This document shows positions 9,477 through 50,382 of a DNA stretch of 53,213 nucleotides, piece after piece. The first letter of the stretch is position 1. Every line of letters starts with the position of its first letter. This DNA comes from a virus. Its lineage: Duplodnaviria; Caudoviricetes. The stretch is taken from positions 1-53,213 of the IMG/VR virus record IMGVR_UViG_3300021406_000015. One strand, written 5' to 3'. Below the pieces are notes generated by a model. That model searched no databases and was not told where the DNA came from. It saw only the letters and a list, made by a program, of their open reading frames with translations. A program made the translations under genes and the position numbers.

Positions 9477-9560
9477 TGGAGCGGGGGACGGGACTTGAAC
9501 CCGCTTGTCTCACGACGGCAGCTTGGAAGGCTGCTGATCTACCAGTTGATCATCCCCCGC
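9477..9560 (-). tRNA. tRNA-Gly(TCC) with long variable arm
   Basis: GCGGGGG/CCCCCGC-T-CCA; GCAGC-CTTCCAA-GCTGC; V-arm GTC-GTGA-GAC. Confidence 0.85.
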
Positions 9561-9565
9561 AACTT

Positions 9566-9639
9566 TGGTGCTCCTCGCAGAAGTCGAATCCGCATCAACC
9601 GCTAATCGGGCGGTGGTCTTGCCATTAGACGAGAGGAGC
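9566..9639 (-). tRNA. tRNA with GAT anticodon (Ile?), atypical loop
   Basis: full cloverleaf with CCA; loop CC-GAT-TA (C33, U37). Confidence 0.7.
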
Positions 9640-9640
9640 A

Positions 9641-9715
9641 TGGTTCCCCGACGCGGGCTCGAACCGCGATAGACGGCTTACCATGCCGTTCCTCTGCCAA
9701 TTGAGGTATCAGGGC
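9641..9715 (-). tRNA. tRNA-Thr(GGT)
   Basis: ACGGC-AT-GGT-AA-GCCGT; CCA; G1.A72 mismatch. Confidence 0.8.
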
Positions 9716-9726
9716 ACTACTAACCT

Positions 9727-9800
9727 TGGTGCCGGGTGCAGGAGTCGAACCCGCGTGAGATGCTTGTAAGACATCCGATCTACCGTTGATGTAACCCGGC
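9727..9800 (-). tRNA. tRNA-Val(TAC)
   Basis: GATGT-CT-TAC-AA-GCATC; A73-CCA. Confidence 0.85.
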
Positions 9801-9807
9801 GATACTA

Positions 9808-9883
9808 TGGAGCAAGCGAACGGACTCGAACCGCTAATTAAGCCTTCGGAGAGCTTTGTGATCTCCAATTTCACCACGCCTGC
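9808..9883 (-). tRNA. tRNA-Arg(CCG)
   Basis: AAGCT-CT-CCG-AA-GGCTT; A20 present; CCA. Confidence 0.85.
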
Positions 9884-9889
9884 AAAACT

Positions 9890-9965
9890 TGGTCAACCCG
9901 CCCGGATACGATCCGGGAACTATGCTTTAGGAGAGCATTGTGATCTCCAGTTTCACCACGGGTTG
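9890..9965 (-). tRNA. tRNA-Arg(CCT)
   Basis: ATGCT-CT-CCT-AA-AGCAT; T-loop ATCGTAT; CCA. Confidence 0.85.
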
Positions 9966-9966
9966 A

Positions 9967-10042
9967 TGGGGCAGCCGGGGTGAGTCGAACACCCTTTGAA
10001 CGCTTTAGAGGAGCGCCACATAATCCGTTCTGTCACGGCTGC
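9967..10042 (-). tRNA. tRNA-Arg(TCT)
   Basis: GCGCT-CC-TCT-AA-AGCGT (C33); A20; CCA. Confidence 0.8.
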
Positions 10043-10836
10043 AAACTGGTGCAAGCGGAGGCGCTCGAAGCCCCATCCTGAGATTTAAAAGATCTCTGCT
10101 CGTCCTCTTGAGCTACGCTTGCGAAACGCTTCTTTTTGGTACCACAATGCCAATCATCTAGCATTCCCAACTTCTGTGCTTTTCTCAACCCAGGAACCAA
10201 TAACATCCACGCCTCATAAGGCATGTCGCGACGGAAATAATTACACCTGTAACAAGCTGGAACCACATTCATTTTAATGTGACCCCTCTTGTTATCGATT
10301 CTATCGAGGGTCATCATCAATTGGGTTTCGGCACAGTAAGAGCATGGGCGCACGATCAATGCTTCAATGAATTCTCTGTCAAGGTCGTTATCTAGCCCAC
10401 GTTTCTTATCGCTGCGCTGCGAATCTCGCATGATGTACGTAGCCCTATTATTCCTGTCGGCTCTTCGAAGCGCTGCTCGAACAGCACGATCACTACTTAC
10501 TTCAGGGCTCCTTTTTCCGCGTGGAAATCGTTTTTTGTATTCAACCTCGCAATCCCTGCACAAGAAGCGCCGATAATAGCGGTTGCCTTGCTTCTTAATC
10601 GCAAATTCAACTTCAGGTTCACCTTTACCGCATACTTTACATTTGTGAATTTTGCGAGGTGTCTTATCGTGTTCCCGAACATATTCACAATGCTTTTCCC
10701 GATTTGCCTCATACCAACGATGACTATACTCAGTAGTGCATTCTCTACACCAAGGCTGTTTACCGTCTTTTTGGCGACTGTTCGCGTTAAAGTTCTCGTC
10801 TTCACGATACTTCTTGCAGCGATTACAGTATCTCAT
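10033..10836 (-). CDS. HNH homing endonuclease inside tRNA block
   Basis: CxxC repeats; CSYC ... LDRIDNKRGH..NVVPACYRCN; 3' end reads through tRNA-Lys(TTT). Confidence 0.8.
   Translation of the reverse strand: MRYCNRCKKYREDENFNANSRQKDGKQPWCRECTTEYSHRWYEANREKHCEYVREHDKTPRKIHKCKVCGKGEPEVEFAIKKQGNRYYRRFLCRDCEVEYKKRFPRGKRSPEVSSDRAVRAALRRADRNNRATYIMRDSQRSDKKRGLDNDLDREFIEALIVRPCSYCAETQLMMTLDRIDNKRGHIKMNVVPACYRCNYFRRDMPYEAWMLLVPGLRKAQKLGMLDDWHCGTKKKRFASVAQEDEQRSFKSQDGASSASACTSLQP
10047..10122 (-). tRNA. tRNA-Lys(TTT)
   Basis: GAGAT-CT-TTT-AA-ATCTC; CCA. Confidence 0.85.
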
Positions 10837-10866
10837 TTACTTTTAAGAATATCACACACACCAATA

Positions 10867-10941
10867 TGGTGGGTCGCCGGGAAGTCGAATCCCGTCAGGA
10901 TGGGTAAGAGCCATCTATGCTACCGTCAACATCTGCGACCC
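10867..10941 (-). tRNA. tRNA-Lys(CTT)
   Basis: GATGG-CT-CTT-AC-CCATC; CCA. Confidence 0.85.
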
Positions 10942-10942
10942 A

Positions 10943-11036
10943 TGGTAGGGGATGTAGGTGCCGAGCCTACCCGTCGCTCTAGTCCAGAACTTTCAGTGGG
11001 TTATAAATCCACTCCGCACAGCCGGTGCTATCCCCC
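10943..11036 (-). tRNA. tRNA-Ile(TAT) with long variable arm
   Basis: GGGGGAT/ATCCCCT-A-CCA; loop TT-TAT-AA; V-arm GTTCT-GGACT-AGAGC. Confidence 0.75.
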
Positions 11037-11046
11037 ATAAATTCGT

Positions 11047-11098
11047 TTCACGGCGGGATGGCGTTGCACCACCGTCTCTAGGCTAACGCCGCCGTGAA
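11047..11098 (-). ncRNA. small tRNA-like RNA (10-bp stem plus T-like arm, no anticodon arm, no CCA)
   Basis: TTCACGGCGG/CCGCCGTGAA; GGTGG-TGCAACG-CCATC. Confidence 0.55.
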
Positions 11099-11100
11099 CT

Positions 11101-11169
11101 TGGTAGCACGTCTGGACTCGAACCAGTTTACGGCATTATGAGAGCCGCTTCCCGCCTTGGGTACGTGCC
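11101..11169 (-). tRNA. compact 69-nt tRNA with CAT anticodon (Met or Ile2)
   Basis: GGCACGT/ACGTGCT-A-CCA; CT-CAT-AA loop; short D arm, 3-nt variable loop, 4-bp T stem. Confidence 0.7.
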
Positions 11170-11174
11170 TTGAA

Positions 11175-11251
11175 TGGCGAGGGTGGCACGATTCGAACGC
11201 GCAAGTTCGGAGTTGGAAACCGACAGTTTGGCCAGTTAAGCTTACACCCTC
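11175..11251 (-). tRNA. tRNA-Trp(CCA)
   Basis: TCGGT-TT-CCA-AC-TCCGA; G73-CCA. Confidence 0.85.
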
Positions 11252-11270
11252 AAAATTTCAAAGATCCAAT

Positions 11271-11296
11271 AAAAAACTCCCGCCTAAGCGAGAGTC
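11271..11296 (-). terminator. attenuator terminator upstream of tRNA block C
   Basis: ACTCTCGC-TTAG-GCGGGAGT-TTTTT between leader ORF and first tRNA. Confidence 0.8.
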
Positions 11297-11322
11297 ATTG
11301 TGCCGCGTATGCACTCAGACCC

Positions 11323-11394
11323 TCATGACACAACTCCCCAGACCCGCTTGGTCCCGGTCATCGATTTGGAAGTTCTTATCTGCACGAAAACCAC
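11323..11394 (-). CDS. leader peptide C (MVFVQIRTSKSMTGTKRVWGVVS)
   Basis: AGAGGAG RBS, GTG start, 23 codons; codons match the downstream Trp/CAT/Ile/Lys/Arg/Val/Thr/Gly tRNAs. Confidence 0.8.
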   Translation of the reverse strand: MVFVQIRTSKSMTGTKRVWGVVS

Positions 11395-11649
11395 TTTACT
11401 CCTCTTCTATTTTTGACGCAAGCACAATCTTGCAATCTCTTAATTCTTTACATGGTGTACAGATTCCAAGACACCGTGGTCCTGCTGTTTTTCCATCAGC
11501 CCGACATAGATGACCCAATGAAAAGCAGACCGCACACCACACCTGATTGGGTGCCTTCTGCACGTTCTTTTTGTGCATGATCAAAGATACCGCAGAACAA
11601 AAAGAAAGGGTGCCCGAAAGCACCCTTGTTGTATCCAGATTCTGGACGG

Positions 11650-12318
11650 TTATGCGCCAACTGTCTCGCCAAGTGCGGCAAACTCCTTAAAGCATCTTGC
11701 GTCATCCCATCCATCCCGTTTTCTTCTCAAGAGAAGTTCATACTTAATTTTTGTGCGCCTCGACCATTCGGCGGCGCATAATGTTTCACCACGAAAAGTA
11801 AGGAGGACACTATTCCGCTTATTTTGTGCCTGAACTTCAACCGTTGCCCATACGCAATTATCTGGCGCGTAATTTCCGTTTACATCACATCTTTCTATAC
11901 TGTGAGATACACTTGGTTTTCTTCCCATATCAGCTAAGAAATTTTCAAAAGACTGCCAGCGCTCACAAACAATAATGCCACGTCCTCCGTAATGTTTGTA
12001 GTATCTAGATGATGGCTTAGTGCAACGGCTCCTCATCGCAACCCACGCCCTCCACTCTGGAGACGATGGCATACCTATACGCTTGCTTTCGCCATGCCGA
12101 ACTAATGTTTCTATGGTGCGTTCTGTACGGTAGCAGCCACATGACTGCGTATGTCCGTTGAGTAGATTTGCTTGGCGAACGCAAACACTGATACCGCATT
12201 TACAGAGACATTGCCAATACGGTTGCCGACCCCATTTGTTGTTGCGATATAGGGGACCACTAACGGTGGTCAGATATCCAAACGTTTGTTCTGGAGTTAC
12301 TAGTTCTAGCGAATGCAT
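11650..12318 (-). CDS. HNH homing endonuclease (CxCxCG / YGGRGI family)
   Basis: CLCKCG, SCGC, YGGRGIIVCERW, SIER.DVNGNY.PDNC.WAT. Confidence 0.85.
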   Translation of the reverse strand: MHSLELVTPEQTFGYLTTVSGPLYRNNKWGRQPYWQCLCKCGISVCVRQANLLNGHTQSCGCYRTERTIETLVRHGESKRIGMPSSPEWRAWVAMRSRCTKPSSRYYKHYGGRGIIVCERWQSFENFLADMGRKPSVSHSIERCDVNGNYAPDNCVWATVEVQAQNKRNSVLLTFRGETLCAAEWSRRTKIKYELLLRRKRDGWDDARCFKEFAALGETVGA

Positions 12319-12341
12319 AGTATCAATTATAAGAGGAAAGT

Positions 12342-12369
12342 AAAAGGCGCACCACAAATCAGTGCGCCT
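12342..12369 (-). terminator. intrinsic terminator ending the Ro60-like operon
   Basis: AGGCGCAC/GTGCGCCT-TTT. Confidence 0.6.
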
Positions 12370-12385
12370 CTTGTGTTGAATTTAG

Positions 12386-12673
12386 TTATGCCTGTAACTC
12401 GGCAAGTTCCTTCTCTAGAGACTCTCTCTTCTCCTCGCGGGACTTGAGACCTTCCAGCGTACTCTTGATCTCGCGCTTACGTGCCTCGCGACGATCTGCC
12501 ATCCGAGCATCGATTTCACGGGAAATGGAATTCAAGTTATCCGAAACGTACTCCGGCACCTGAACCTTCTGAGCCTCGAACTCGCCACGAAGCATCTTCC
12601 CGAAGGCTGACAGCGCAACTAGCTCTTCGATTTCGGATGCCTCAACATTGAAGTTTTTAAACTCCTGAAGCAT
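12386..12673 (-). CDS. coiled-coil hypothetical protein (possible partner of the Ro60-like protein)
   Basis: strong AAGGAGG RBS before MLQEFK; helical heptads. Confidence 0.7.
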   Translation of the reverse strand: MLQEFKNFNVEASEIEELVALSAFGKMLRGEFEAQKVQVPEYVSDNLNSISREIDARMADRREARKREIKSTLEGLKSREEKRESLEKELAELQA

Positions 12674-12771
12674 GGTTTTCCTCCTTTCCGCCGATCTCTT
12701 GCGAGGATCGACAAAGATGTTCGGGCTTCTCTTGCGCCCCTTCGGACTGAAATTCTTCATGTGGCCTGCCA

Positions 12772-13563
12772 TCATGCACCAACCAATTCTTCGCTCTTAC
12801 TTTTGCGATAGTCTCTCATCGCCTTAGCCCTTGCGTCTTTGCAAACATCGCATCGACAACCGTGATACGAATATGCAGACGATGTTCCGTGTGTGACCAT
12901 TCCGCGCGGTAATAAGTTCGGCGTGGTCAAGGTGTCTTCCAATGTCCATCCATTCTGTATTCGCACAAGAATAGTAGACTTATGAAGCCCTAGTTTTCTT
13001 GCCCATTCGACAACCGGGAGAGTTACATCACCAAACGTCAAATTGATCGTAGAAGACCTATTCTGCGCCTGTTCTCGTTTCGTAGACCACTTACAATTCT
13101 CAGGAGAATACCCTTTTGAGCCATCAACACGATCAATCGTGTGTTGAGGAGTAGGCTTCCGCCCCATGTCACTCAGAAACGTTTCATAGGAATGGAGCCA
13201 TTTATCGCAGACTGTTATACCAACCGCTCCATATCGCAAGTAGCTGGCACTTTGCGGTTTGAGGCATCTTTCTTTCATTGAAATCCAACTCCTATATTCC
13301 GAGGTTGGATGTTTGGACTCTCCGTGAACCAACGGAAAACATTCACTATTGCCCGGTTGTTCGCGCCTCAAACAACCACACGATTTGGAATGGCCTCTTC
13401 GCAGCATCTTAGGTGTTTCAAATTTCCGATTGCCGCAATCACAAAGACATTCAACCACTCCCTGATTGCGTCCTCCGAGCTTCATCATCTGAAGCTCGGA
13501 GATAACAGTCCATTTTCCGAATCGCTCACCCAGCGACACTGTATGCAGTCTTAGTGGATGCAT
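12772..13563 (-). CDS. HNH homing endonuclease with C-terminal HG..S.Y...CRC..C zinc motif
   Basis: CLCDCG, SCGC, YGAVGITVC, TIDRVD..KGY.PENCKW; paralogue of 11650..12318. Confidence 0.85.
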   Translation of the reverse strand: MHPLRLHTVSLGERFGKWTVISELQMMKLGGRNQGVVECLCDCGNRKFETPKMLRRGHSKSCGCLRREQPGNSECFPLVHGESKHPTSEYRSWISMKERCLKPQSASYLRYGAVGITVCDKWLHSYETFLSDMGRKPTPQHTIDRVDGSKGYSPENCKWSTKREQAQNRSSTINLTFGDVTLPVVEWARKLGLHKSTILVRIQNGWTLEDTLTTPNLLPRGMVTHGTSSAYSYHGCRCDVCKDARAKAMRDYRKSKSEELVGA

Positions 13564-15043
13564 TGGTCCCCTTTATGGACGTGAGTACATCGCTCAAGCT
13601 AAGAAGCGGTGTGCTCAATATTTCGTCACATAAAGAATACTGATTAGATCGCAATGTGGCAACTGTATTCGGCAGAGAATAGTAGTCCACCGCACCACGA
13701 CGCAGATCGAACGTGGTCATCTCGATTCCAGCCTGCTGCATCCGTGCCGACAGGTAGTCCGGGTCTCCCGCCAACTGGTAGAAGTACACCGGGACGTCCT
13801 TGTCGATCATCTTCGCGTACTTCTTATATACGTCTGCAAAGTACGGTGCGTGGCCCTCGCCGCCGTCCGAGATGATGGCGATGCCATCGACCTCAGTCTT
13901 CTCGACAAGGAGCCGGTTCAAACCGCAGCCAATGGACGTTCCACCACCAGCGCTGATGTGCTGCGTCGCCTTCTTGATCTGATCGAGCGACGAGCCGGTC
14001 ACTTCCACCGACATCGGAGCCGTATCGAAGAACACCAGCCAGACCTTACCCTTCACGTACTGGGCAAGAGTTGCGGAGACGTGCCGCGAGATCTCGATAG
14101 CGTCACGCATGCTACCGCTCTTGTCGGCCAAGACCAGCCAGTTGCCGTCCGGTCCGCCTGCCGCCGCGATCTGCTTCGCCTGTACTGCGCGGAGCTTGTC
14201 CTTCAAGCCTTCGTCATCGACAGCATCGATAGCCGCAGTCGTCTTCAGCGTGGTCTGCTTGGACGTGGCCACCTTCTTCAGTCCTTCCTCGAAGGCCGCG
14301 CGCAGCGCCGGGTTGGTCTTCATACCCAGCTTCTCTAACATCTTCACGTTGGTCTGCAACTCGGTCGCCGACATGCGCGCCATCAGTGCCAGCACGAGAT
14401 CGGTGTCCTTTGCCTTGGCACCCAGAGCGCCCATGGCGATCAGAAACGGGATCTTGTATTTCGAGATCGCGCCCGCCGCCTCAACCGGTGCCATGTCCTT
14501 CAGGTGAGCAACCACCTCAAAGACACTGCCCTTCGGCAACGGAGCCTTGGTCTTGTCGAAATTGCGACCGTACAGCACGACGTTGGTACGCTCCTTCTCC
14601 GGCTTCGCGTGCGCAAGGGCATAAAGCTCTTTCAGTGTGCTACGGTGCTGTACTGCGAGATGGTCCCAGCCGCGATCCTGCTCCTTCTGGTGAAGATATC
14701 CCTCCACCAACCGGCGAAGCTGCCGCATCTTACCCGGCAACCGCAGTTCCAGAGCAAACCTGTAGGCACGCGCCAACTCGCGCGGTCCCAAGAGAGCAAT
14801 ATGCGCCAGCGAGTTGTCCGCCAGTTCGGCGTCCTTCTCGTAGGCAAGGCCGATGACCGGCAGCGCTACCTTGCTGTCGCGAACCTGGCCATGAGTGCGA
14901 TCCCACGCAATCAGGTGCTGGAAGAACTCGCCTTCCTGTAGGACGGCCTTGAGGCCGATGTCGAGGTACTCCTTGAGAGCACCGTGAGATGACTTGGAAA
15001 GTTCAGCGACGATACGCTGACGTGTTACGCCCTGCTCTGCCAT
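13526..15043 (-). CDS. Ro60/TROVE-like RNA-binding protein with C-terminal vWA domain
   Basis: helical N-terminal region; DKSGSM MIDAS, GGGTSIG, IISDG; about 500 aa; downstream of six Y-like RNAs. Ro60 assignment is inferred from architecture and context; alternative start 15052. Confidence 0.7.
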   Translation of the reverse strand: MAEQGVTRQRIVAELSKSSHGALKEYLDIGLKAVLQEGEFFQHLIAWDRTHGQVRDSKVALPVIGLAYEKDAELADNSLAHIALLGPRELARAYRFALELRLPGKMRQLRRLVEGYLHQKEQDRGWDHLAVQHRSTLKELYALAHAKPEKERTNVVLYGRNFDKTKAPLPKGSVFEVVAHLKDMAPVEAAGAISKYKIPFLIAMGALGAKAKDTDLVLALMARMSATELQTNVKMLEKLGMKTNPALRAAFEEGLKKVATSKQTTLKTTAAIDAVDDEGLKDKLRAVQAKQIAAAGGPDGNWLVLADKSGSMRDAIEISRHVSATLAQYVKGKVWLVFFDTAPMSVEVTGSSLDQIKKATQHISAGGGTSIGCGLNRLLVEKTEVDGIAIISDGGEGHAPYFADVYKKYAKMIDKDVPVYFYQLAGDPDYLSARMQQAGIEMTTFDLRRGAVDYYSLPNTVATLRSNQYSLCDEILSTPLLSLSDVLTSIKGTNASTKTAYSVAG

Positions 15044-15069
15044 GGTGTTCATCCTCCCGTGATGAAAAG

Positions 15070-15510
15070 TTAGGCCGCTTTACTTTTATGCCGTCTTAGG
15101 TACTCAATGGCGCACAACAAATTTTCTTCATCGTCCATAAATAACCCTAGAGCGCAATTACAACGCTGGCATAGAAAACCTCTAAATTTTCCGGTTTCGT
15201 GATCGTGGTCCCACTGAAATCCTTTTGAAGTTGGACCACATCCACAAATCTCGCATACCTGAACCGACTTCTTTGCCTCGCGCCTTTTCTTAGATTCAGA
15301 CGTGGCCCAATATGGCGACTCACCATCCTTGGATTTACGAATTCGACTACCGGTACGCTTCTGCCCCTTAAACCTATTTTCGGCAAGAGAACAAGCAAAG
15401 CGCATCCCTCGGTTTTTCTTCTTGACGCGCACTAGACCACAATGGGCACATTCACCCATCATTGCGTTTTCGTCCACGTTGATTATTTTGTGAATTCGTT
15501 GACCACGCAA
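15070..15510 (-). CDS. endonuclease VII-like HNH nuclease
   Basis: CEIC ... DHDHETGKFRGFLCQRCNCALG. Confidence 0.85.
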   Translation of the reverse strand: MRGQRIHKIINVDENAMMGECAHCGLVRVKKKNRGMRFACSLAENRFKGQKRTGSRIRKSKDGESPYWATSESKKRREAKKSVQVCEICGCGPTSKGFQWDHDHETGKFRGFLCQRCNCALGLFMDDEENLLCAIEYLRRHKSKAA

Positions 15511-15528
15511 GGCGTCTTCCTTTTGTTG

Positions 15529-15640
15529 ACGGGGAACCCCGGTTTTGAGCCGAGATTACCGAGCCGAAGCCCGATTAAGCATGTATCCAACGACAGTGAG
15601 CATTTCTGCTAAGTCGTTTGGAACCTCTTAGGTTCCCCGT
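15529..15640 (-). ncRNA. Y-RNA-like RNA 6
   Basis: ACGGGGAAC/GTTCCCCGT outer stem; internal helix followed by TACATG; UUCG hairpin; T-like arm. Confidence 0.65.
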
Positions 15641-15647
15641 AACTTTA

Positions 15648-15772
15648 TGGCGTTAAGGCTTGCTGGATGTTTACGCGTGCTGCCGCTGCACCACGAGAAG
15701 CTAGGCTTCTCGGCGGGATTCGAACCCGCGTCTCGGTCGCCAAAGGACATGTACCCAACAAAATAAACGCCA
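15648..15772 (-). ncRNA. Y-RNA-like RNA 5 (YrlA topology)
   Basis: outer helix, TACATG, T arm GCGGG-TTCGAAT-CCCGC, closed acceptor-like hairpin, D arm GTGC/GCAC. Confidence 0.8.
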
Positions 15773-15778
15773 ATCTAG

Positions 15779-15899
15779 TGGAGCCGGGTGCTGGAGTTGA
15801 ACCAGCGTGTTCAGGACTATGCGACCTGTGCATGTATCCACTTGGGTTATACGGTTGCCCGTAAAGGTGCTAGTGGCGTTACCGTTTTGCTAACCCGGC
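15779..15899 (-). ncRNA. Y-RNA-like RNA 4 (CCA-ended tRNA with inserted helix)
   Basis: GCCGGGT/ACCCGGC-T-CCA; helix plus TACATG inserted between D and anticodon-like arms. Confidence 0.7.
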
Positions 15900-15907
15900 T
15901 CATCTTA

Positions 15908-16028
15908 TGGTGGAGGGCCTGCGATTCGAACGCAGTAGAGTTACAACCAAATGTTACTCTTTGCCATGTAGCCAAGAAAAGTGTCCGTCGAAACGGAAAG
16001 TCGATCTCGGTTTGTTTTTTAGCCCCCC
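15908..16028 (-). ncRNA. Y-RNA-like RNA 3 (Ala-identity acceptor stem, CCA)
   Basis: GGGGGGC/GCCCTCC-A-CCA with G3.U70; T arm; internal helix plus TACATG. Confidence 0.7.
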
Positions 16029-16037
16029 ACAACTTAA

Positions 16038-16175
16038 TGGGTTGAAGTCTCTCAGGTAGCATCCCTTTCGGGAATGCCTGATTTGAAGTCAGGTGCCTAA
16101 CCATTCGGCTAATTCACCTCACGGTGAATCTTGGATTCGAACCAAGATAACATGTAACCTGAAACGTACAACCCA
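16038..16175 (-). ncRNA. Y-RNA-like RNA 2 (permuted tRNA domain with TCA anticodon arm)
   Basis: outer helix, TACATG, T arm, GTGA-capped acceptor hairpin, D arm, CCTGA-CTTCAAA-TCAGG, GAAA hairpin. Confidence 0.75.
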
Positions 16176-16181
16176 AACTTA

Positions 16182-16305
16182 TTGCGTCAAGACGTTGAGC
16201 GATTCCCTTTCGGGAACGGAATCGGAATTGAACCGACTACCCTCAGATTACAAGTCTGATGCTCTACCAAATGAGCTATCCATGTACGCTCAACAATAGA
16301 CGCAA
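16182..16305 (-). ncRNA. Y-RNA-like RNA 1 (embedded D, anticodon TGT and T arms)
   Basis: TTGCGTC..GTTGAGCG/CGCTCAAC..GACGCAA outer helix; TACATG; tRNA core with only a 3-bp acceptor. Confidence 0.75.
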
Positions 16306-16353
16306 ACTCAAAAACTCTCAAAGAACTTTCTTGGGCCTGAGCCCAACTTCACA

Positions 16354-16382
16354 ACTCTACATCAGTTTCGCGATGCGCGCAA
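16354..16382 (-). promoter_or_regulatory. promoter for the Y-like RNA / Ro60-like operon
   Basis: TTGCGC-17 nt-TAGAGT. Confidence 0.5.
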
Positions 16383-16402
16383 TTAAAATCTGCGCTTTTT
16401 TA

Positions 16403-16481
16403 TGGAAGGGCTGACAGGACTTGAACCTGCTACCTCCGAGTTCGTAGCTCGGCGCTCTCTATCCAGATGAGCTACAGCCCC
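16403..16481 (-). tRNA. tRNA-Arg(ACG)
   Basis: CCGAG-CT-ACG-AA-CTCGG; CCA. Confidence 0.9.
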
Positions 16482-16490
16482 TAAAAGGGA

Positions 16491-16564
16491 TGGTCGGGGT
16501 ATGAGGATTTAAACCTCAGATGCCGCGTCCCAGGCGCGGAGTGTTTTCGCTACACTATACCCCG
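16491..16564 (-). tRNA. tRNA-Pro(TGG)
   Basis: C1-G72, A73; CCGCG-CC-TGG-GA-CGCGG (C33). Confidence 0.8.
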
Positions 16565-16674
16565 ATATTTAATTCCAATTTGCTACTACGGCCACAATGC
16601 ACAAAATCCCAACCAATGCGAGGTAGACGCAGATACTAAATTTTCCAAATGCTTCCAGCGTTTCAATTCTCGAA

Positions 16675-16878
16675 TCACGCATCGCAACCTCGTTTCTCTT
16701 CCTTCACAACATAATGCCGCTCAGGACCATTTTCCGCCGCCGAGTTGAGTACGTCCACAAGTTGACCCGGCTCGATAAATGCAACATCCGGACCCATCGG
16801 ACAAAACGGAAACAGTGCAGCCTTTCGCTTTTCAGACTTGTGATAGCACTCTTCGGTCTGTACGTAAACCTGTGACAT
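16675..16878 (-). CDS. hypothetical protein
   Basis: AGGAGG RBS, 67 aa. Confidence 0.55.
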   Translation of the reverse strand: MSQVYVQTEECYHKSEKRKAALFPFCPMGPDVAFIEPGQLVDVLNSAAENGPERHYVVKEEKRGCDA

Positions 16879-16891
16879 GTCGCCTCCTATA

Positions 16892-23641: not shown

Positions 23642-23669
23642 CTTTAGCATTGTCCAGATTCTGGAGCAA
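23642..23669 (-). promoter_or_regulatory. promoter of the Met/Asp/Glu tRNA block overlapped by the 13-bp palindrome
   Basis: TTGCTC ... TG-C-TAAAGT with TCCAGAATCTGGA (23653..23665) overlapping the -35 and spacer. Confidence 0.55.
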
Positions 23670-23670
23670 G

Positions 23671-24333
23671 CTAATTTGCGCTCATCGTATACCCGATACT
23701 CCCGAATTTCACTGAATATGCGCCTCCACCCGGAGTCCCGTTGATTACCTGCTGAAGCTGGGTCACGATCTGCGATGGTGCCCATCCTTGTTTCTTGGCC
23801 GGAATCTTCTGAAGAGAGGGACTGACCAGTGTCTTGGTACCGTTTACCGTGACCGCCAAGACAGAGCTTGTTAACCCAACGAAGTCCAACGCATAATCGA
23901 TCTGCACCGGTACCCACATGTTCGGAGTTGGGATGGTTCCGATCTTGATGCCGGTATCGGTCCAAGATCCGGCTGCATTGTCGATCTGAAACATCCAGCC
24001 CTCGTTAAGATTCCACTGTGCTGAGAGGTCGTAGGTGTTTCCAGCAGCGTCTGTGATCTTCGAGTCTGTCTCGATTACCTGTCCACATTGCAAGGTCGCA
24101 TCATCAATCTGAAAGCTGTAGAGGAAGGATATTGCCGGGAACGGATACAGGAGAGAACTAACGTTTTTAGCTAACCATCCTGAATACGCTGGACCGCAAC
24201 AGTAGAGCCTGATGCCGTCCGGAATCTGGACAAAGTCATAGCCGCTGGGAGAGATCGGGTTGATGGTGGGTCCGACGTTCTTTGTCCAGCCAGTGGAGGA
24301 TTCAAGATTGGTAATGGTACATGCAAGGCTCAT
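23671..24333 (-). CDS. beta-rich hypothetical protein (possible lectin/glucanase-like fold)
   Basis: 220 aa, Trp/Thr/Gly-rich; TATAAT 7 nt before ATG; fold is a guess. Confidence 0.65.
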   Translation of the reverse strand: MSLACTITNLESSTGWTKNVGPTINPISPSGYDFVQIPDGIRLYCCGPAYSGWLAKNVSSLLYPFPAISFLYSFQIDDATLQCGQVIETDSKITDAAGNTYDLSAQWNLNEGWMFQIDNAAGSWTDTGIKIGTIPTPNMWVPVQIDYALDFVGLTSSVLAVTVNGTKTLVSPSLQKIPAKKQGWAPSQIVTQLQQVINGTPGGGAYSVKFGSIGYTMSAN

Positions 24334-24351
24334 GCGCGGAATTATAACTTA

Positions 24352-24435
24352 TGGTGCACTGGGAGAGAATCGAACTCTCGATAGCCTTATGGCCAACTGT
24401 TTTACAGACAGTGTCCGCTCCACGCGGTCCAGTGC
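24352..24435 (-). tRNA. tRNA-Tyr(GTA)
   Basis: ACTGT-CT-GTA-AA-ACAGT; long V arm; CCA. Confidence 0.85.
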
Positions 24436-24441
24436 ACAACA

Positions 24442-24529
24442 TGGTGGCGAGCCAGAGTGTCGATCTCTCATCCCTCTCAGGAGCCAACGGTTTTCAAGGC
24501 CGTTCGCAGAGCCGTCTGCGGGACTCGCC
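24442..24529 (-). tRNA. tRNA-Ser(TGA)
   Basis: loop CT-TGA-AA; long V arm; CCA. Confidence 0.8.
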
Positions 24530-24534
24530 AAACT

Positions 24535-24623
24535 TGGCGGTAGGCTGAGCATCGAAGCCCCGTGCCATCGCTGACACGTCACCGGTTTTCGAGGCCGGGT
24601 GGAGAACTTCTCCGAAACCTACC
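24535..24623 (-). tRNA. tRNA-Ser(CGA)
   Basis: loop CT-CGA-AA; long V arm; G73-CCA. Confidence 0.8.
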
Positions 24624-24624
24624 A

Positions 24625-24709
24625 TGGCGGAAAGAGCAGCATCGAAGCTGATACCTTTCGGTACGCACCGATTTCCAGTCGGGCCTCGCACCTCGCGAGT
24701 TCACTTTCC
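24625..24709 (-). tRNA. tRNA-Ser(GGA)
   Basis: loop CT-GGA-AA; long V arm; G73-CCA. Confidence 0.85.
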
Positions 24710-24714
24710 AAAAA

Positions 24715-24801
24715 TGGCGGAGAGCCGAGCGCACGATGCCCACACCCGAAGGTGCCATTCGTTTAGCAAACGACGCCGTCAGCCCCAACGGTTGACTCTC
24801 C
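24715..24801 (-). tRNA. tRNA-Ser(GCT)
   Basis: loop TT-GCT-AA; long V arm; G73-CCA. Confidence 0.85.
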
Positions 24802-24816
24802 GTGAAACTTCTCTGA

Positions 24817-24916
24817 TATTCACCGTGACGGGACTTGAACCCGCAAGGTCGGTGTTACTCCGTGAAACACGTTTGCCATTGTTCTGACTCTCGTCGCTTT
24901 CGCCACACAATGAATA
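24817..24916 (-). ncRNA. tRNA-like RNA with 11-bp terminal stem and canonical T arm
   Basis: TATTCATTGTG/CACGGTGAATA; GCGGG-TTCAAGT-CCCGT; internal GNRA hairpins; no CCA. Confidence 0.6.
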
Positions 24917-24924
24917 CCAGAACT

Positions 24925-25009
24925 TGGTGCCGGTCGCGGATAACGAGTCCGCACGCCATTTACGGCACTGGCTTTTGAGGCCAGCATGTCTGCATTCCAT
25001 CAGACCGGC
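24925..25009 (-). tRNA. tRNA-Leu(CAA)
   Basis: CTGGC-CT-CAA-AA-GCCAG; V arm; A73-CCA. Confidence 0.85.
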
Positions 25010-25016
25010 AAAAACT

Positions 25017-25102
25017 TGGTGCAGGTAGAGGGACTTGAACCCCCACGCCACTAGGGCAATGGTTTCTAAAACCATCTCGGCTTCCAATTACGACATACCT
25101 GC
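25017..25102 (-). tRNA. tRNA-Leu(TAG)
   Basis: ATGGT-TT-TAG-AA-ACCAT; V arm; CCA. Confidence 0.9.
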
Positions 25103-25109
25103 ACATCTT

Positions 25110-25197
25110 TGGTGCTCCAGAACGGACTTGAACCGTCAAATCTCATCAGAGAAACAAGACCCTCAGTCTTGCGCGTTTTCCTTTTCGCCACTGGAGC
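25110..25197 (-). tRNA. tRNA-Leu(GAG)
   Basis: CAAGA-CT-GAG-GG-TCTTG; V arm; CCA. Confidence 0.9.
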
Positions 25198-25209
25198 AAA
25201 ACTAAACTT

Positions 25210-25287
25210 TGGACGACCGGGCCGGATTTTAACCGACGAAACTAGATGGGTTGCGGCCATCCGCGTTAAACACTTCGCCACCGGTCG
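25210..25287 (-). tRNA. tRNA-Cys(GCA)
   Basis: GATGG-CC-GCA-AC-CCATC (C33); U73-CCA. Confidence 0.8.
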
Positions 25288-25288
25288 A

Positions 25289-25376
25289 TGGTGCGGGAAG
25301 CGGGACTCTAACCCGCACGAGAGTTAAATCTCAAGAGGGTTTAAGCCTCTCATGTCTGACATTCCATCATTCCCGC
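25289..25376 (-). tRNA. tRNA-Leu(TAA)
   Basis: AGAGG-CT-TAA-AC-CCTCT; V arm; CCA. Confidence 0.9.
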
Positions 25377-25383
25377 ATAAACT

Positions 25384-25413
25384 AAAACAGCCCCCGATTT
25401 TGGTCGGAGGCTG
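25384..25413 (-). terminator. attenuator terminator upstream of tRNA block A
   Basis: CAGCCTCCGA-CCAAAA-TCGGGGGCTG-TTTT. Confidence 0.85.
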
Positions 25414-25438
25414 CTGTAACCCAGAAAATCGATCCGGC

Positions 25439-25510
25439 TTACATACGCGCCTCCATGCCGCTCAGTGAGCAGCTATACAAGGACGACGAGAGTAAGCTTA
25501 GGAGTTTCAT
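25439..25510 (-). CDS. leader peptide A (MKLLSLLSSSLYSCSLSGMEARM)
   Basis: 23 codons; codons 3-17 are all Leu/Ser/Tyr/Cys, matching the 10 downstream tRNAs. Confidence 0.85.
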   Translation of the reverse strand: MKLLSLLSSSLYSCSLSGMEARM

Positions 25511-25520
25511 ACGCAGGAAC

Positions 25521-25549
25521 ATGATTCCACGGATTTATTTTGGTGTCAA
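25521..25549 (-). promoter_or_regulatory. promoter of tRNA block A
   Basis: TTGACA-17 nt-AATCAT with TG extension, 10 nt before leader ATG. Confidence 0.6.
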
Positions 25550-49374: not shown

Positions 49375-50382
49375 TTATTTAGAAGTGCTGTACTCTTGTT
49401 CTCTGATGAATACACCACGTTGTTCTATAGTCGCACCATCTTTCATCTGATACGCAACAATTTCCGCGTCCTCCCTATCAAATATCGCTGCCCACATTCT
49501 ACTCTTGATCCACTTAAAATCACCATCGTTGCGCGTTCTCTTGCCTCTGACGTAACGTTTTAAGTCACCCTCTCCTTTTACGACCATAAACTGATCTGCT
49601 TCGCGTTCTCGCTTTTCTTTTAGTCTTCGCCTCTGACGCTGATCTGCCTGACATTTGTCTGTACAGAATTTTTGTGTTGGCTTAATGGTAAAGTATGTTT
49701 TGCCGCAAGAACACAGCTTCTCCTTCGGTTTTCGCTCTTCAATGATCTGCTCTATTGTTTTGCCTTGTTCAAGGTGATAATGCAACAACGATGGATCTAA
49801 ATCCAACTCTCTGGACCAATCAACGAATAGCTTTTCTTCACCAAGTGCCGCAATTCTTCGACTACTGCGTTTATTTCTAGCTTGATCGCCACGCGGAATC
49901 CATTTGCAGTTTCCCGGTTCATAATCGCCGTTTACATCTATTCTCTCGATGGTTAGTCCGCCAGATGGTCCCATATCATCATAGAAATTCTGAAAACTAT
50001 TTAACCATCGCCGACAGACGGTAATTCCTCTCCCACCGTAATCTTTATAGTGATGGAGATTTGGATTGAGACACCTTTCCTTCATAGCTATCCAACTATT
50101 CCACTCAGAAGTATGGCTCATGCCGTGGTCAACTTCTTTCACGACTTCTGCGTTATAGCAACCACAACTCTGACTGACACCATTCCGCAAATTACATCGG
50201 CTGATTTCTTTGATTGTTCCGCATTCACACTGGCATTTCCAATATATGTATCGCCCACGATTAGGCGCTCTTTTCAAAACAGTCCAACGGCCATAGTGTT
50301 CGCCAGTTAAATTTATAAATTTTCTACTCCAAGTATGCTGTTTGGTATTCTCAACCCAGTAAGGTTTGCCCCTTTCCCTCAT
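49375..50382 (-). CDS. HNH homing endonuclease (CxCxCG / YGGRGI family)
   Basis: CQCECG, SCGC, YGGRGITVC, TIERIDVNGDYEPGNCKW; start uncertain. Confidence 0.85.
   Translation of the reverse strand: MRERGKPYWVENTKQHTWSRKFINLTGEHYGRWTVLKRAPNRGRYIYWKCQCECGTIKEISRCNLRNGVSQSCGCYNAEVVKEVDHGMSHTSEWNSWIAMKERCLNPNLHHYKDYGGRGITVCRRWLNSFQNFYDDMGPSGGLTIERIDVNGDYEPGNCKWIPRGDQARNKRSSRRIAALGEEKLFVDWSRELDLDPSLLHYHLEQGKTIEQIIEERKPKEKLCSCGKTYFTIKPTQKFCTDKCQADQRQRRRLKEKREREADQFMVVKGEGDLKRYVRGKRTRNDGDFKWIKSRMWAAIFDREDAEIVAYQMKDGATIEQRGVFIREQEYSTSK

What the first reader, a model, noticed from the sequence alone, without database searches (positions are those of the whole stretch)
11271..11408. Attenuator C: leader matches Trp/CAT/Ile/Lys/Arg/Val/Thr/Gly tRNAs
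Seen: AGAGGAG RBS, then GTG GTT TTC GTG CAG ATA AGA ACT TCC AAA TCG ATG ACC GGG ACC AAG CGG GTC TGG GGA GTT GTG TCA TGA. 17 of 22 post-start codons encode amino acids of the downstream block. 10 of 12 tRNAs have a cognate codon; AGG and ATY are absent. Leader GGGAGTTGTGTC can pair with GGCACAA-TG-ACTCTC, which includes the terminator 5' arm. I did not identify a convincing promoter.
Basis: partly seen in the sequence, partly recalled or inferred. Interest (0 to 1): 0.85.

Follow-up and report, generated by a model that had tools for sequence, protein, structure and literature searches.

The report
Codon-matched leader attenuator before tRNA genes
A tiny translated reading frame written mostly in the codons read by the tRNA genes behind it, joined to a switchable transcription stop, probably lets this soil phage make those tRNAs only when ribosomes decode these codons slowly.

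Summary
On the minus strand a short ORF (stop 11325-11323) is followed by an intrinsic terminator (11296-11275) that ends 23 nt before tRNA-Trp.

The element is conserved. I found it in 11 viral versions and in 34 loci of Acidobacteriaceae genome bins. It keeps one reading frame, a covarying terminator and an antiterminator that a ribosome at the stop codon would block.

Leader codons match the tRNAs of their own block down to the isoacceptor. Across the viral family 180 of 259 leader C codons are readable by block C, against 33 by block A and 29 by block B. Two further leaders in the window (A at 25.5 kb, B at 19.4 kb) match their own blocks in the same way.

Soil metatranscriptome contigs run from the leader across the terminator into the tRNAs.

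The 'AGAGGAG RBS' lies in the spacer of a homology-inferred promoter, and the homologous start is GTG 11385. The conserved antiterminator arm is GAGGGTC (11324-11318), not GGGAGTTGTGTC.

Best reading: a trp/ilv-type multivalent leader-peptide attenuator that feeds back on tRNA genes. Translation and stall-dependent read-through are inferred, not shown.

Ten literature searches found no description of this for tRNA genes. Earlier unchecked AI notes of this scan report the same design on other DNA.

The parts
11393..11421 (-).
   Evidence: Aligns without gaps with TTGCAA-N17-TAGGCT (L006, L079), TTGCAT-N17-TACGCT (L035), TTGCAA-N17-TAACGT (L005) and TTGACA-N17-TACAGT (L009). The consensus scan did not flag it (8 of 12 matches). 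RNA contigs do not extend upstream of 11370. Inferred.
11323..11385 (-). Leader ORF C: GTG 11385-11383, 19 sense codons (QIRTSKSMTGTKRVWGVVS), TGA 11325-11323.
   Evidence: Frame 0 is the only frame open in all 42 distinct versions. Distances from the start to the AAG anchor are all multiples of 3.
11338..11355 (-). Hairpin inside the ORF, GGGACC-AAGCG-GGTCTG (AUGACC-AAGCG-GGUCAU followed by UUUGGGG in most relatives). Candidate RNA polymerase pause hairpin; its loop holds the AAG and CGG codons
   Evidence: 94.6% of 56 cells are paired. Three pairs show changes on both sides, all from L004 (CCAUC-AAGCG-GAUGG). 0 of 500 shuffles reach the observed value. The pausing role is inferred.
11318..11324 (-). 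Antiterminator 5' arm GAGGGTC, which overlaps the stop codon
   Evidence: Pairs with 11296-11290 in nascent-RNA folds. The same arrangement appears in 10 of 10 viral versions and 39 of 39 further distinct versions.
11275..11296 (-). Intrinsic terminator GACTCTCGC-TTAG-GCGGGAGTT followed by a U-run to about 11268. Its 5' arm 11296-11290 doubles as the antiterminator 3' arm
   Evidence: Covariation in 10 versions: 96.7% of 90 cells paired, 5 of 9 pairs changed on both sides, 0 of 500 shuffles as high.
11327..11338 (-).
   Evidence: Duplex energy is -16.1 kcal/mol in the window but -5.9 to -14.5 in 9 relatives. This pairing is specific to the window and is not the conserved switch.
11256..11263 (-). 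Conserved box CTTTGAAA between the terminator and tRNA-Trp; role unknown
   Evidence: Seen; not followed up (note).
9477..11251 (-). Regulated block C. In order: tRNA-Trp(cca); a CAT tRNA-like gene; a TAT tRNA-like gene; Lys(ctt); an inserted endonuclease ORF; Lys(ttt); Arg(tct)-like, called 'cta' by ARAGORN; Arg(cct); Arg(ccg); Val(tac); Thr(ggt); Ile(gat); Gly(tcc)
   Evidence: The same order is seen in viral and Acidobacteriaceae arrays.

Best explanation
This is a ribosome-mediated (leader-peptide) transcription attenuator of the trp/his/ilv kind that controls tRNA genes rather than amino-acid biosynthesis genes.

Proposed sequence of events: transcription starts at a promoter just upstream, perhaps giving a leaderless or nearly leaderless mRNA. 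A roughly 20-codon frame is then translated. It is written mostly in the codons read by the 12 tRNAs of the block behind it.

If decoding is fast, the ribosome reaches the stop codon and covers GAGGGUC. The terminator then forms and transcription ends 23 nt before tRNA-Trp.

If the ribosome stalls at any of the first 16 or so codons because a cognate tRNA is scarce, GAGGGUC pairs with the terminator's 5' arm. RNA polymerase then reads on into the tRNA block.

The newly made tRNAs relieve the stall, so the circuit is a multi-input negative feedback that supplies tRNA on demand. The demand could arise, for example, when host tRNAs are cleaved or translation is impaired.

Shown here: the anatomy, its conservation, the covariation, the codon matching, and RNA that spans the terminator. 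Inferred: translation of the frame, the transcription start, pausing, the termination efficiency and the direction of the response.
For: (1) Conservation. The same ORF, antiterminator and terminator stand before tRNA-Trp in 11 viral versions. They also occur in 39 further distinct sequences, 34 of them from Acidobacteriaceae genome bins.

(2) Coding signature. Frame 0 is open in all 42 distinct versions. Frame +1 has stops in 42 of 42 and frame +2 in 20 of 42. All length differences are whole codons.

(3) Codon match in leader C. 180 of 259 leader C codons are decodable by the 12 block C anticodons, against a background of 0.267.

(4) Family matrix. Leader A: 87/18/21 of 130 codons are decodable by blocks A/B/C. 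Leader B: 15/115/20 of 158. Leader C: 33/29/180 of 259. In the window alone the figures are 11/3/3 of 22, 4/18/2 of 26 and 4/1/12 of 19.

(5) Isoacceptor partition for amino acids shared by B and C.
- Thr: leader B has ACA 8, ACG 10, ACC 7; leader C has ACC 35, ACT 3, ACG 4, ACA 0.
- Arg: leader B has CGA 7, CGT 3, AGA 2; leader C has AGA 11, CGG 11, AGG 5, CGC 3, CGT 1.
- Gly: leader B has GGT 10, GGC 2, GGG 3, GGA 1; leader C has GGG 12, GGA 12, GGT 5.
- These follow the placement of Thr-tgt/cgt, Arg-acg and Gly-gcc in block B and Thr-ggt, Arg-tct/cct/ccg and Gly-tcc in block C.

(6) Coverage. 10 to 12 of 12 anticodon classes are covered in the 11 viral versions and in 29 of 29 distinct bacterial versions.

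(7) Structure. The terminator covaries. With a ribosome placed early, the terminator 5' arm is held by the arm next to the stop codon in 10 of 10 and 39 of 39 versions. With a ribosome at the stop this pairing is lost. In the window the predicted sensing zone is codons 2-17.

(8) No promoter-like site was found in the 23 nt between terminator and tRNA-Trp.

(9) Soil metatranscriptome contigs X4 (11025-11370) and X6 (11167-11349) bridge the terminator at 100% identity.
Against: There is no direct evidence of translation, of termination or of stall-dependent read-through.

The promoter matches only 8 of 12 consensus positions, and the scan missed it. A leaderless GUG start is unusual.

The RNA evidence consists of assembled contigs. 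These cannot show ends, strand or level and may include DNA carry-over.

In the window alone, 14 of 376 small ORFs reach the same tRNA-class coverage.

The antiterminator's co-evolution with its own terminator arm is only modest. Own pairs average -14.5 kcal/mol against -12.8 for swapped pairs, and 206 of 20000 permutations do as well.

The 5' anti-antiterminator (1:2) pairing is clear in some relatives (L006, L079, L004) but weak in the window.

Bacterial versions carry Leu, Phe, His and Asp/Glu codons that block C does not read; 387 of 633 codons match.

The pooled codon counts come from homologous sequences that are not independent.

The strong nucleotide conservation of AUGACCAAGCGGGUCAUUUGGGGA partly reflects an RNA hairpin rather than the peptide.
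Confidence: 0.78

Rival explanations
1. It is a general sensor of translation stress, not of specific tRNAs. The leader works as an attenuator, but any slowing of ribosomes (antibiotics, ribosome damage, starvation) opens it. On this view the codon match has no regulatory meaning of its own.
For: The same RNA logic applies. A long tRNA array in Anabaena is induced more than 100-fold by ribosome-targeting antibiotics of any class (PMC8421152, abstract and section 27 read). Bacterial leader C versions carry several codons that are not read by the block.
Against: The isoacceptor-level partition between leaders B and C and the diagonal family matrix are hard to explain without selection for the codons of each leader's own block. 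Position 2 is the most variable codon position, which fits exchange within the block's codon set.
Confidence: 0.1
2. It is an RNA-only regulatory or processing element. On this view the conserved hairpins bind a protein, a tRNA or an RNase, and the open frame is a by-product.
For: The core is conserved at the nucleotide level and forms a hairpin whose compensatory changes in L004 alter the peptide. Variability shows no third-position excess. Several versions have no evident Shine-Dalgarno sequence.
Against: Only one frame is open in all 42 versions, and all indels are whole codons. Start and stop codons are kept at homologous places, and the stop always abuts or lies inside the antiterminator arm. 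The codon and tRNA match also holds in two unrelated sister leaders. No Rfam family, T-box included, matches at E<=10.
Confidence: 0.07
3. It is a chance ORF next to an ordinary terminator or processing hairpin that closes the upstream unit. On this view the tRNAs are transcribed independently.
For: In the window alone, 14 of 376 small ORFs cover as many tRNA classes. The HNH endonuclease gene lies upstream.
Against: The upstream gene has its own terminator at 11627-11606. The element is conserved in 50 ORF versions, 42 of them distinct. The scan found no promoter-like site in the 23 nt between terminator and tRNA. RNA contigs bridge the terminator.
Confidence: 0.02

Closest known systems
Multivalent leader-peptide attenuators of enterobacterial amino-acid operons (ilvGMEDA leader with Ile/Leu/Val codons, thr leader with Thr/Ile codons; also trp, his, leu, pheA). 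Recalled from textbook knowledge; the Rfam leader families were searched
   Same: A short translated leader, a terminator and an overlapping antiterminator. A ribosome at the end of the leader blocks the antiterminator. Regulatory codons for more than one amino acid lie in the stall zone. There is a candidate pause hairpin and a 5' anti-antiterminator.
   Different: The regulated genes are tRNAs, not biosynthetic enzymes, so the product itself relieves the stall. The regulatory codons are not runs of one codon but roughly one or two codons for each of about 12 tRNA species, chosen at isoacceptor level. There is no sequence match to any Rfam leader family at E<=10.
[quoted passage not shown] PCC 7120 trn operon (Santamaria-Gomez et al. 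2021, PMC8421152; TrcR repressor, PMC10272220)
   Same: Dozens of tRNA genes in a mobile array associated with homing endonucleases. The Anabaena array is silent normally and induced when translation is impaired. Related arrays occur in bacteria and phages.
   Different: In Anabaena control is assigned to a repressor that binds direct repeats at the promoter. Text searches found no occurrence of 'attenuat', 'leader peptide' or 'terminator' in either paper (supplements not seen). Here the array is cut into three units, each behind its own codon-matched leader and terminator.
T-box riboswitches
   Same: They sense the state of a specific tRNA and decide between a terminator and an antiterminator.
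   Different: T-boxes bind uncharged tRNA directly, need no translation, and mostly regulate aminoacyl-tRNA synthetase and amino-acid genes. No T-box match was found at E<=10, and the element here is about 130 nt with an ORF.
Stall-sensing leader ORFs of antibiotic resistance genes and of toxin-driven stress responses. Examples: erm/cat leaders, the topAI uORF (PMC12121999, listing only), and Cys-codon small ORFs responding to VapC4 cleavage of tRNA-Cys (Barth et al. 2021, seen only as a reference)
   Same: Ribosome stalling on a short ORF reports impaired decoding and switches on the downstream genes.
   Different: Those elements sense drugs or the loss of one tRNA and regulate protein genes. 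Here about 12 codon classes are sampled and the output is the matching tRNAs.

Membership tests
Ribosome-mediated (leader-peptide) transcription attenuator | Short ORF with start and stop in the 5' leader, kept as an open frame in relatives | tested here: met
   Frame 0 is open in all 42 distinct versions, and the other frames carry stops in 42 and 20 of 42. All indels are whole codons.
Ribosome-mediated (leader-peptide) transcription attenuator | Leader enriched in codons tied to the regulated product | tested here: met
   180 of 259 codons against a background of 0.267; diagonal family matrix; isoacceptor partition.
Ribosome-mediated (leader-peptide) transcription attenuator | Intrinsic terminator between the leader and the regulated genes | tested here: met
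   Covariation: 96.7% of cells paired, 5 of 9 pairs compensatory, 0 of 500 shuffles as high. Present in 10 of 10 and 39 of 39 versions.
Ribosome-mediated (leader-peptide) transcription attenuator | Antiterminator that excludes the terminator and is blocked by a ribosome at the end of the leader | tested here: met
   Constrained folds of nascent RNA (10 of 10 and 39 of 39 versions). This is in silico only, and the co-evolution swap test is modest (206 of 20000 permutations).
Ribosome-mediated (leader-peptide) transcription attenuator | Pause hairpin or anti-antiterminator (1:2) that couples transcription to translation | tested here: inconclusive
   The hairpin inside the ORF is conserved, with compensatory changes in one lineage. 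Pairing of the 5' end with the antiterminator arm is predicted in L006, L079 and L004 but is weak in the window.
Ribosome-mediated (leader-peptide) transcription attenuator | Read-through rises when ribosomes stall on the regulatory codons | not testable with these tools
   This needs reporter assays, in vitro coupled assays or Term-seq. RNA contigs only show that read-through RNA exists.
T-box riboswitch | Specifier loop and T-box sequence detectable by the Rfam model | tested here: not met
   No T-box hit at gathering score or at E<=10 in 11150-11650.
Rfam amino-acid operon leader families (Trp, His, Thr, Leu leaders) | Match to the family covariance model | tested here: not met
   only tRNA reaches threshold, and the other rows have E 0.55-6.8, far below gathering scores.
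Long tRNA gene array (L-array / tRNA array unit) | 20 or more tRNA genes at about 2 per kb, mobile, with homing endonucleases | tested here: met
   ARAGORN tRNAs in 9477-25376, interspersed with HNH and endonuclease VII-like ORFs. The same gene order occurs in phage contigs and Acidobacteriaceae chromosomal contigs. The definition is taken from the abstracts of PMC4758250 (listing) and PMC8421152.

The most novel reading that the evidence does not exclude
tRNA gene arrays of phages and of bacterial chromosomes are run by a regulatory principle that I could not find described. Each sub-array sits behind a 'codon sampler' leader peptide that measures how fast ribosomes decode exactly the codons its tRNAs read, and opens a terminator when any of them is slow. 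That would make these arrays self-regulating emergency tRNA supplies, for example a phage counter-measure to anticodon nucleases and tRNA depletion. It would also give a direct mechanism for the induction of such arrays by translational stress.
Probability: 0.65. Interest if true: 0.9.

Novelty: new variant of a known kind. Interest (0 to 1): 0.85.

Why it matters
How individual tRNA genes are regulated is largely unknown. The 2021 L-array paper says so itself (PMC8421152, section 27).

A leader-peptide attenuator that reads out the supply of the very tRNAs it controls would be a direct feedback loop on the decoding capacity of the cell. It would explain why spare tRNA arrays can be silent yet inducible.

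It would also bear on the phage-host conflict over tRNAs, that is tRNA-cleaving defences against phage-encoded tRNAs. The phage would make replacement tRNAs only when they are needed.

The design is compact: about 150 nt with 12 inputs. It is testable with reporters and could serve as a natural sensor of codon-specific translation speed.

The same element occurs in phage contigs and in Acidobacteriaceae chromosomal arrays. This points to exchange of whole regulated tRNA modules between phage and host.

Tried and rejected
Searches for close relatives
- blastn of 10800-12400 against cultured and deposited phages gave one unrelated 153-nt hit.
- tblastn with the 508-aa neighbour gave one distant uncultured phage. 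No cultured relative or host came from that collection.
- The exact 26-nt terminator pattern had 0 matches in viral contigs.
- The first loose motif returned 118 stretches, nearly all chance. Only those that also carried ATGACC upstream were kept.

RNA families
- Rfam found nothing but tRNA.
- Rfam found no tRNA at E<=1 for the CAT and TAT genes.

Earlier notes on this DNA
- There are none.

Statistics that gave weak or negative results
- The antiterminator swap test is only modest.
- The codon-position entropy test gave no third-position excess, so classic purifying selection on the peptide is rejected.
- The six-frame small-ORF control shows that the window alone is not decisive.

Technical failures
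- My terminator finder failed on leader B and the script stopped there, so B's switch was not folded.
- timed out and was rerun.

RNA runs
- Stretches of the window without RNA contig cover (for example the HNH gene, 11440-12295) cannot be read as silence.
- The RNA contig ends at 11370 and 11349 are only a weak hint of a start near 11385.

Mechanisms considered and rejected
- A pyrBI-type mechanism, in which the ribosome itself melts the terminator: the stop codon lies 23-32 nt before the terminator arm.
- A second promoter at the CTTTGAAA box: I saw no consistent -10 by eye.

Not used
- No structure or complex predictions were run. They do not bear on this element.

Full report
**1. What is there**

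The window is a 53-kb contig and is the whole assembly held for this genome. ARAGORN tRNA genes, all on the minus strand, between 25376 and 9477. Rfam confirms 23 of them at gathering score. HNH and endonuclease VII-like homing endonuclease ORFs lie among them. Other ORFs hit phage protein families, including a primase/helicase. Relatives are IMG/VR contigs of about 134 kb. No cultured relative turned up.

The finding lies on the minus strand. In order it reads:
- an HNH gene with its own terminator (11627-11606);
- about 200 nt of spacer;
- AGAGGAG (11405-11399) and GTG (11394);
- an open frame ending at TGA 11325-11323;
- a hairpin GACTCTCGC-TTAG-GCGGGAGTT (11296-11275) with a U-run;
- tRNA-Trp, 23 nt further on at 11251.

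**2. Conservation**

Using the 508-aa neighbouring protein I fetched 9 related viral loci. Each locus that holds tRNA-Trp has the same unit in front of it. L004, where ARAGORN calls no Trp, has the unit before its first block tRNA. Two motif scans added more viral versions.

A scan of one genome per prokaryote species returned 95 stretches. Of these, 34 loci carry the extended motif. All are genome bins labelled Acidobacteriaceae, Terracidiphilus or close relatives, and several lie on contigs of 0.7-1.3 Mb. These bacterial loci hold compact arrays of about 30 tRNAs in the same gene order as the phage.

In all there are 50 ORF versions, 42 of them distinct.
- Frame 0 is open in all 42. Frame +1 has stops in 42 of 42 and frame +2 in 20 of 42.
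- The distance from the conserved start (A/G)TG to the invariant AAG CGG is always a multiple of three.
- The stop codon either abuts the motif GGGTC or lies five codons further on, inside the same RNA arm.

**3. Start codon and promoter**

The window aligns without gaps to L006, L079 and L035 and reads TTGCGT-N17-TAAAGT-GGTTTTC-GTG CAG. The relatives have TTGCAA/TTGCAT-N17-TAGGCT/TACGCT-N7-GTG. L009 has TTGACA-N17-TACAGT-N6-ATG.

The homologous start is GTG 11385. In five versions the message would be leaderless or nearly so. Other versions (L001, L004, L088, L039) have a longer 5' UTR with a Shine-Dalgarno-like sequence.

The promoter is inferred. It matches 8 of 12 consensus positions and the scan did not list it. 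A universally conserved in-frame ATG (11361) is an alternative start. All three candidate starts share one frame, so the codon analysis does not depend on the choice.

**4. Codon matching**

Block C holds, in the family, Trp-cca, a CAT tRNA, Ile-tat, Lys-ctt, Lys-ttt, Arg-tct, Arg-cct, Arg-ccg, Val-tac, Thr-ggt, Ile-gat and Gly-tcc. With plain wobble rules these read 16 codons, which make up 0.267 of 11468 codons in 36 long ORFs of the window.

Leader C uses them in 13 of 19 codons in the window (p 1.8e-4) and in 180 of 259 codons over the 11 viral versions. The 29 distinct bacterial versions use them in 387 of 633 codons. These are less pure, with Leu, Phe, His and Asp/Glu codons near the N-terminus.

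Coverage is 11 or 12 in the ten viral relatives and 10 to 12 in the bacterial ones.

As a caution, 14 of 376 small ORFs in the six frames of the window also reach 10 classes. The window alone would not carry the claim.

**5. Sister leaders**

The window holds two more units of the same build.
- Leader A (ATG 25510, peptide MKLLSLLSSSLYSCSLSGMEARM, terminator 25415-25386) stands before the Leu/Cys/Leu/Leu...Tyr block. Relatives also have four Ser tRNAs there.
- Leader B (ATG about 19375, peptide MKFNRANSTRTFTPAQPQGNTLSCGPA) stands before Asn/Gln/Gln/Gly/Thr/His/Ala/Phe/Pro/Arg-acg.

Over the family, the three non-overlapping codon sets give a diagonal matrix:

| Leader | Codons | Block A | Block B | Block C |
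|---|---|---|---|---|
| A | 130 | 87 | 18 | 21 |
| B | 158 | 15 | 115 | 20 |
| C | 259 | 33 | 29 | 180 |

In the window alone the figures are 11/3/3 of 22, 4/18/2 of 26 and 4/1/12 of 19.

The strongest single result is the isoacceptor partition for amino acids present in both B and C:

| Amino acid | Leader B codons | Leader C codons |
|---|---|---|
| Thr | ACA 8, ACG 10, ACC 7 | ACC 35, ACT 3, ACG 4, ACA 0 |
| Arg | CGA 7, CGT 3, AGA 2 | AGA 11, CGG 11, AGG 5, CGC 3, CGT 1 |
| Gly | GGT 10, GGC 2, GGG 3, GGA 1 | GGG 12, GGA 12, GGT 5 |

This follows where the tRNA isoacceptors sit. Fisher p values are 2e-7, 2.7e-5 and 2.6e-4. They are pooled over homologues and so are not independent.

Bacterial arrays also have leaders A and B with matching composition, including Asp and Glu codons before a block that ends with Asp and Glu tRNAs.

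Variability by codon position is 8.97, 14.08 and 11.33 for positions 1, 2 and 3. The peptide itself is therefore not under ordinary purifying selection. Exchange among A-N-N codons of the block fits better.

**6. RNA switch**

The terminator is present in 10 of 10 viral versions and covaries. 96.7% of 90 cells are paired, 5 of 9 pairs have changes on both sides, 0 of 500 shuffles reach this, and slid controls give 33-62% paired.

I folded the nascent RNA up to the terminator loop under three conditions.
- Nucleotides 0-30 masked (a ribosome stalled early): the terminator 5' arm pairs with the arm at or just after the stop codon in 10 of 10 versions.
- The stop region masked: that pairing is lost.
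- No ribosome: in several relatives the 5' end (UGCAGAU or CAGACC) pairs with the antiterminator arm, and the terminator forms.

The same holds in 39 of 39 further distinct sequences.

Moving the ribosome codon by codon puts the window's sensing zone at codons 2-17. The last three sense codons and the stop block the antiterminator. Non-cognate residues cluster in that last stretch.

A hairpin inside the ORF, AUGACC-AAGCG-GGUCAU followed by UUUGGGG, is kept in all versions. L004 has three compensatory pairs. I read it as a candidate pause hairpin.

The antiterminator swap test is modest.

**7. Expression**

Three soil metatranscriptome runs hold parts of the region. Contig X4 covers 11025-11370 and contig X6 covers 11167-11349, both at 100% identity. 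Both bridge the terminator into tRNA-Trp. None reaches upstream of 11370, while a DNA contig runs on to 12167.

This shows that read-through RNA joining leader and tRNAs exists. It is a weak hint for a start near 11385. Contigs cannot give ends, strand or level.

**8. Comparison with what is known**

The architecture is that of the classical multivalent attenuators (ilv, thr; recalled). The element matches no Rfam leader or T-box model.

The arrays themselves are L-arrays in the sense of Santamaria-Gomez et al. 2021. In the Anabaena array, control is by a repressor. Neither that paper nor the TrcR paper contains the words attenuat-, leader peptide or terminator.

Ten full-text searches found no paper describing a leader-peptide attenuator in front of tRNA genes. 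In the last listing the four tRNA-array papers shown have zero occurrences of leader peptide, attenuator or antiterminator. Only 25 of 344 hits were listed there. Subscription journals, old scans and supplements were not searchable.

Earlier AI notes of this scan report the same design before tRNA arrays in at least 50 other genomes. I found none on this DNA. Those notes agree with my reading, but I did not test them.

**9. Verdict**

I give 0.78 to a stall-sensing, codon-matched leader-peptide attenuator that feeds back on tRNA genes. The remainder goes to a non-specific translation-stress sensor, an RNA-only element, and chance.

It is a new variant of a known kind and of high interest.

Noticed in passing
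window 25386-25549 (minus strand): Leader A has the same build as the finding: promoter TTGACA-N17-AATCAT, ORF MKLLSLLSSSLYSCSLSGMEARM, and a terminator 10 nt before tRNA-Leu(taa). Its Leu, Ser, Tyr and Cys codons match the block's tRNAs, and the antiterminator arm GGAGGCGC lies in its last codons. The window's leader keeps 8 Ser codons although ARAGORN calls no Ser tRNA in this contig; relatives have 3-4 at that place.
   Followed up: partly
window about 19225-19415 (minus strand): Leader B: promoter TTGACA-N17-TAACGT, ORF MKFNRANSTRTFTPAQPQGNTLSCGPA, a GC-rich hairpin with a U-run, then tRNA-Asn. Its codons match the Asn/Gln/Gly/Thr/His/Ala/Phe/Pro/Arg-acg block. Its RNA switch was not folded because my terminator finder failed on it.
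   Followed up: partly
loci L137-L212 (genome contigs), e.g. L139, L164, L199: Acidobacteriaceae and Terracidiphilus genome bins carry chromosomal arrays of about 30 tRNAs. The gene order and the leaders A, B and C are the same as in the phage, and some lie on contigs of 0.7-1.3 Mb. This suggests that the phage's host is an acidobacterium and that whole regulated tRNA modules move between phage and host.
   Followed up: partly
window 9967-10042 and 21147-21220 (minus strand): ARAGORN calls two 'Pyl(cta)' suppressor tRNAs. The first sits where relatives have Arg(tct). It fits a clean anticodon stem if read as Arg-UCU with C33 instead of U33. The second also has C33. These may be anticodon-loop variants rather than suppressors.
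   Followed up: partly
window 10945-11172 (minus strand): Two tRNA-like genes (anticodons CAT and TAT) are called by neither ARAGORN nor Rfam here. The CAT gene is nearly identical to a 69-nt gene that ARAGORN calls Met(cat) in L039, with an unusual D region. The TAT gene has a long extra arm and an atypical T loop. A perfect hairpin (TTCACGGCGG...CCGCCGTGAA) lies between them.
   Followed up: partly
window 11256-11263 (minus strand) and the same place in relatives: A conserved box CTTTGAMA lies between the terminator U-run and the 5' end of tRNA-Trp. It looks like a -35 hexamer but sits too close to the tRNA for an ordinary promoter.
   Followed up: no
window 10136-10836, 11650-12357, 12772-13563, 49375-50454 (minus strand): Several HNH and endonuclease VII-like homing endonuclease ORFs are inserted within and beside the tRNA blocks. 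Three of them share the same PHROG family. Their positions differ between relatives, so they are mobile insertions that split the arrays.
   Followed up: no
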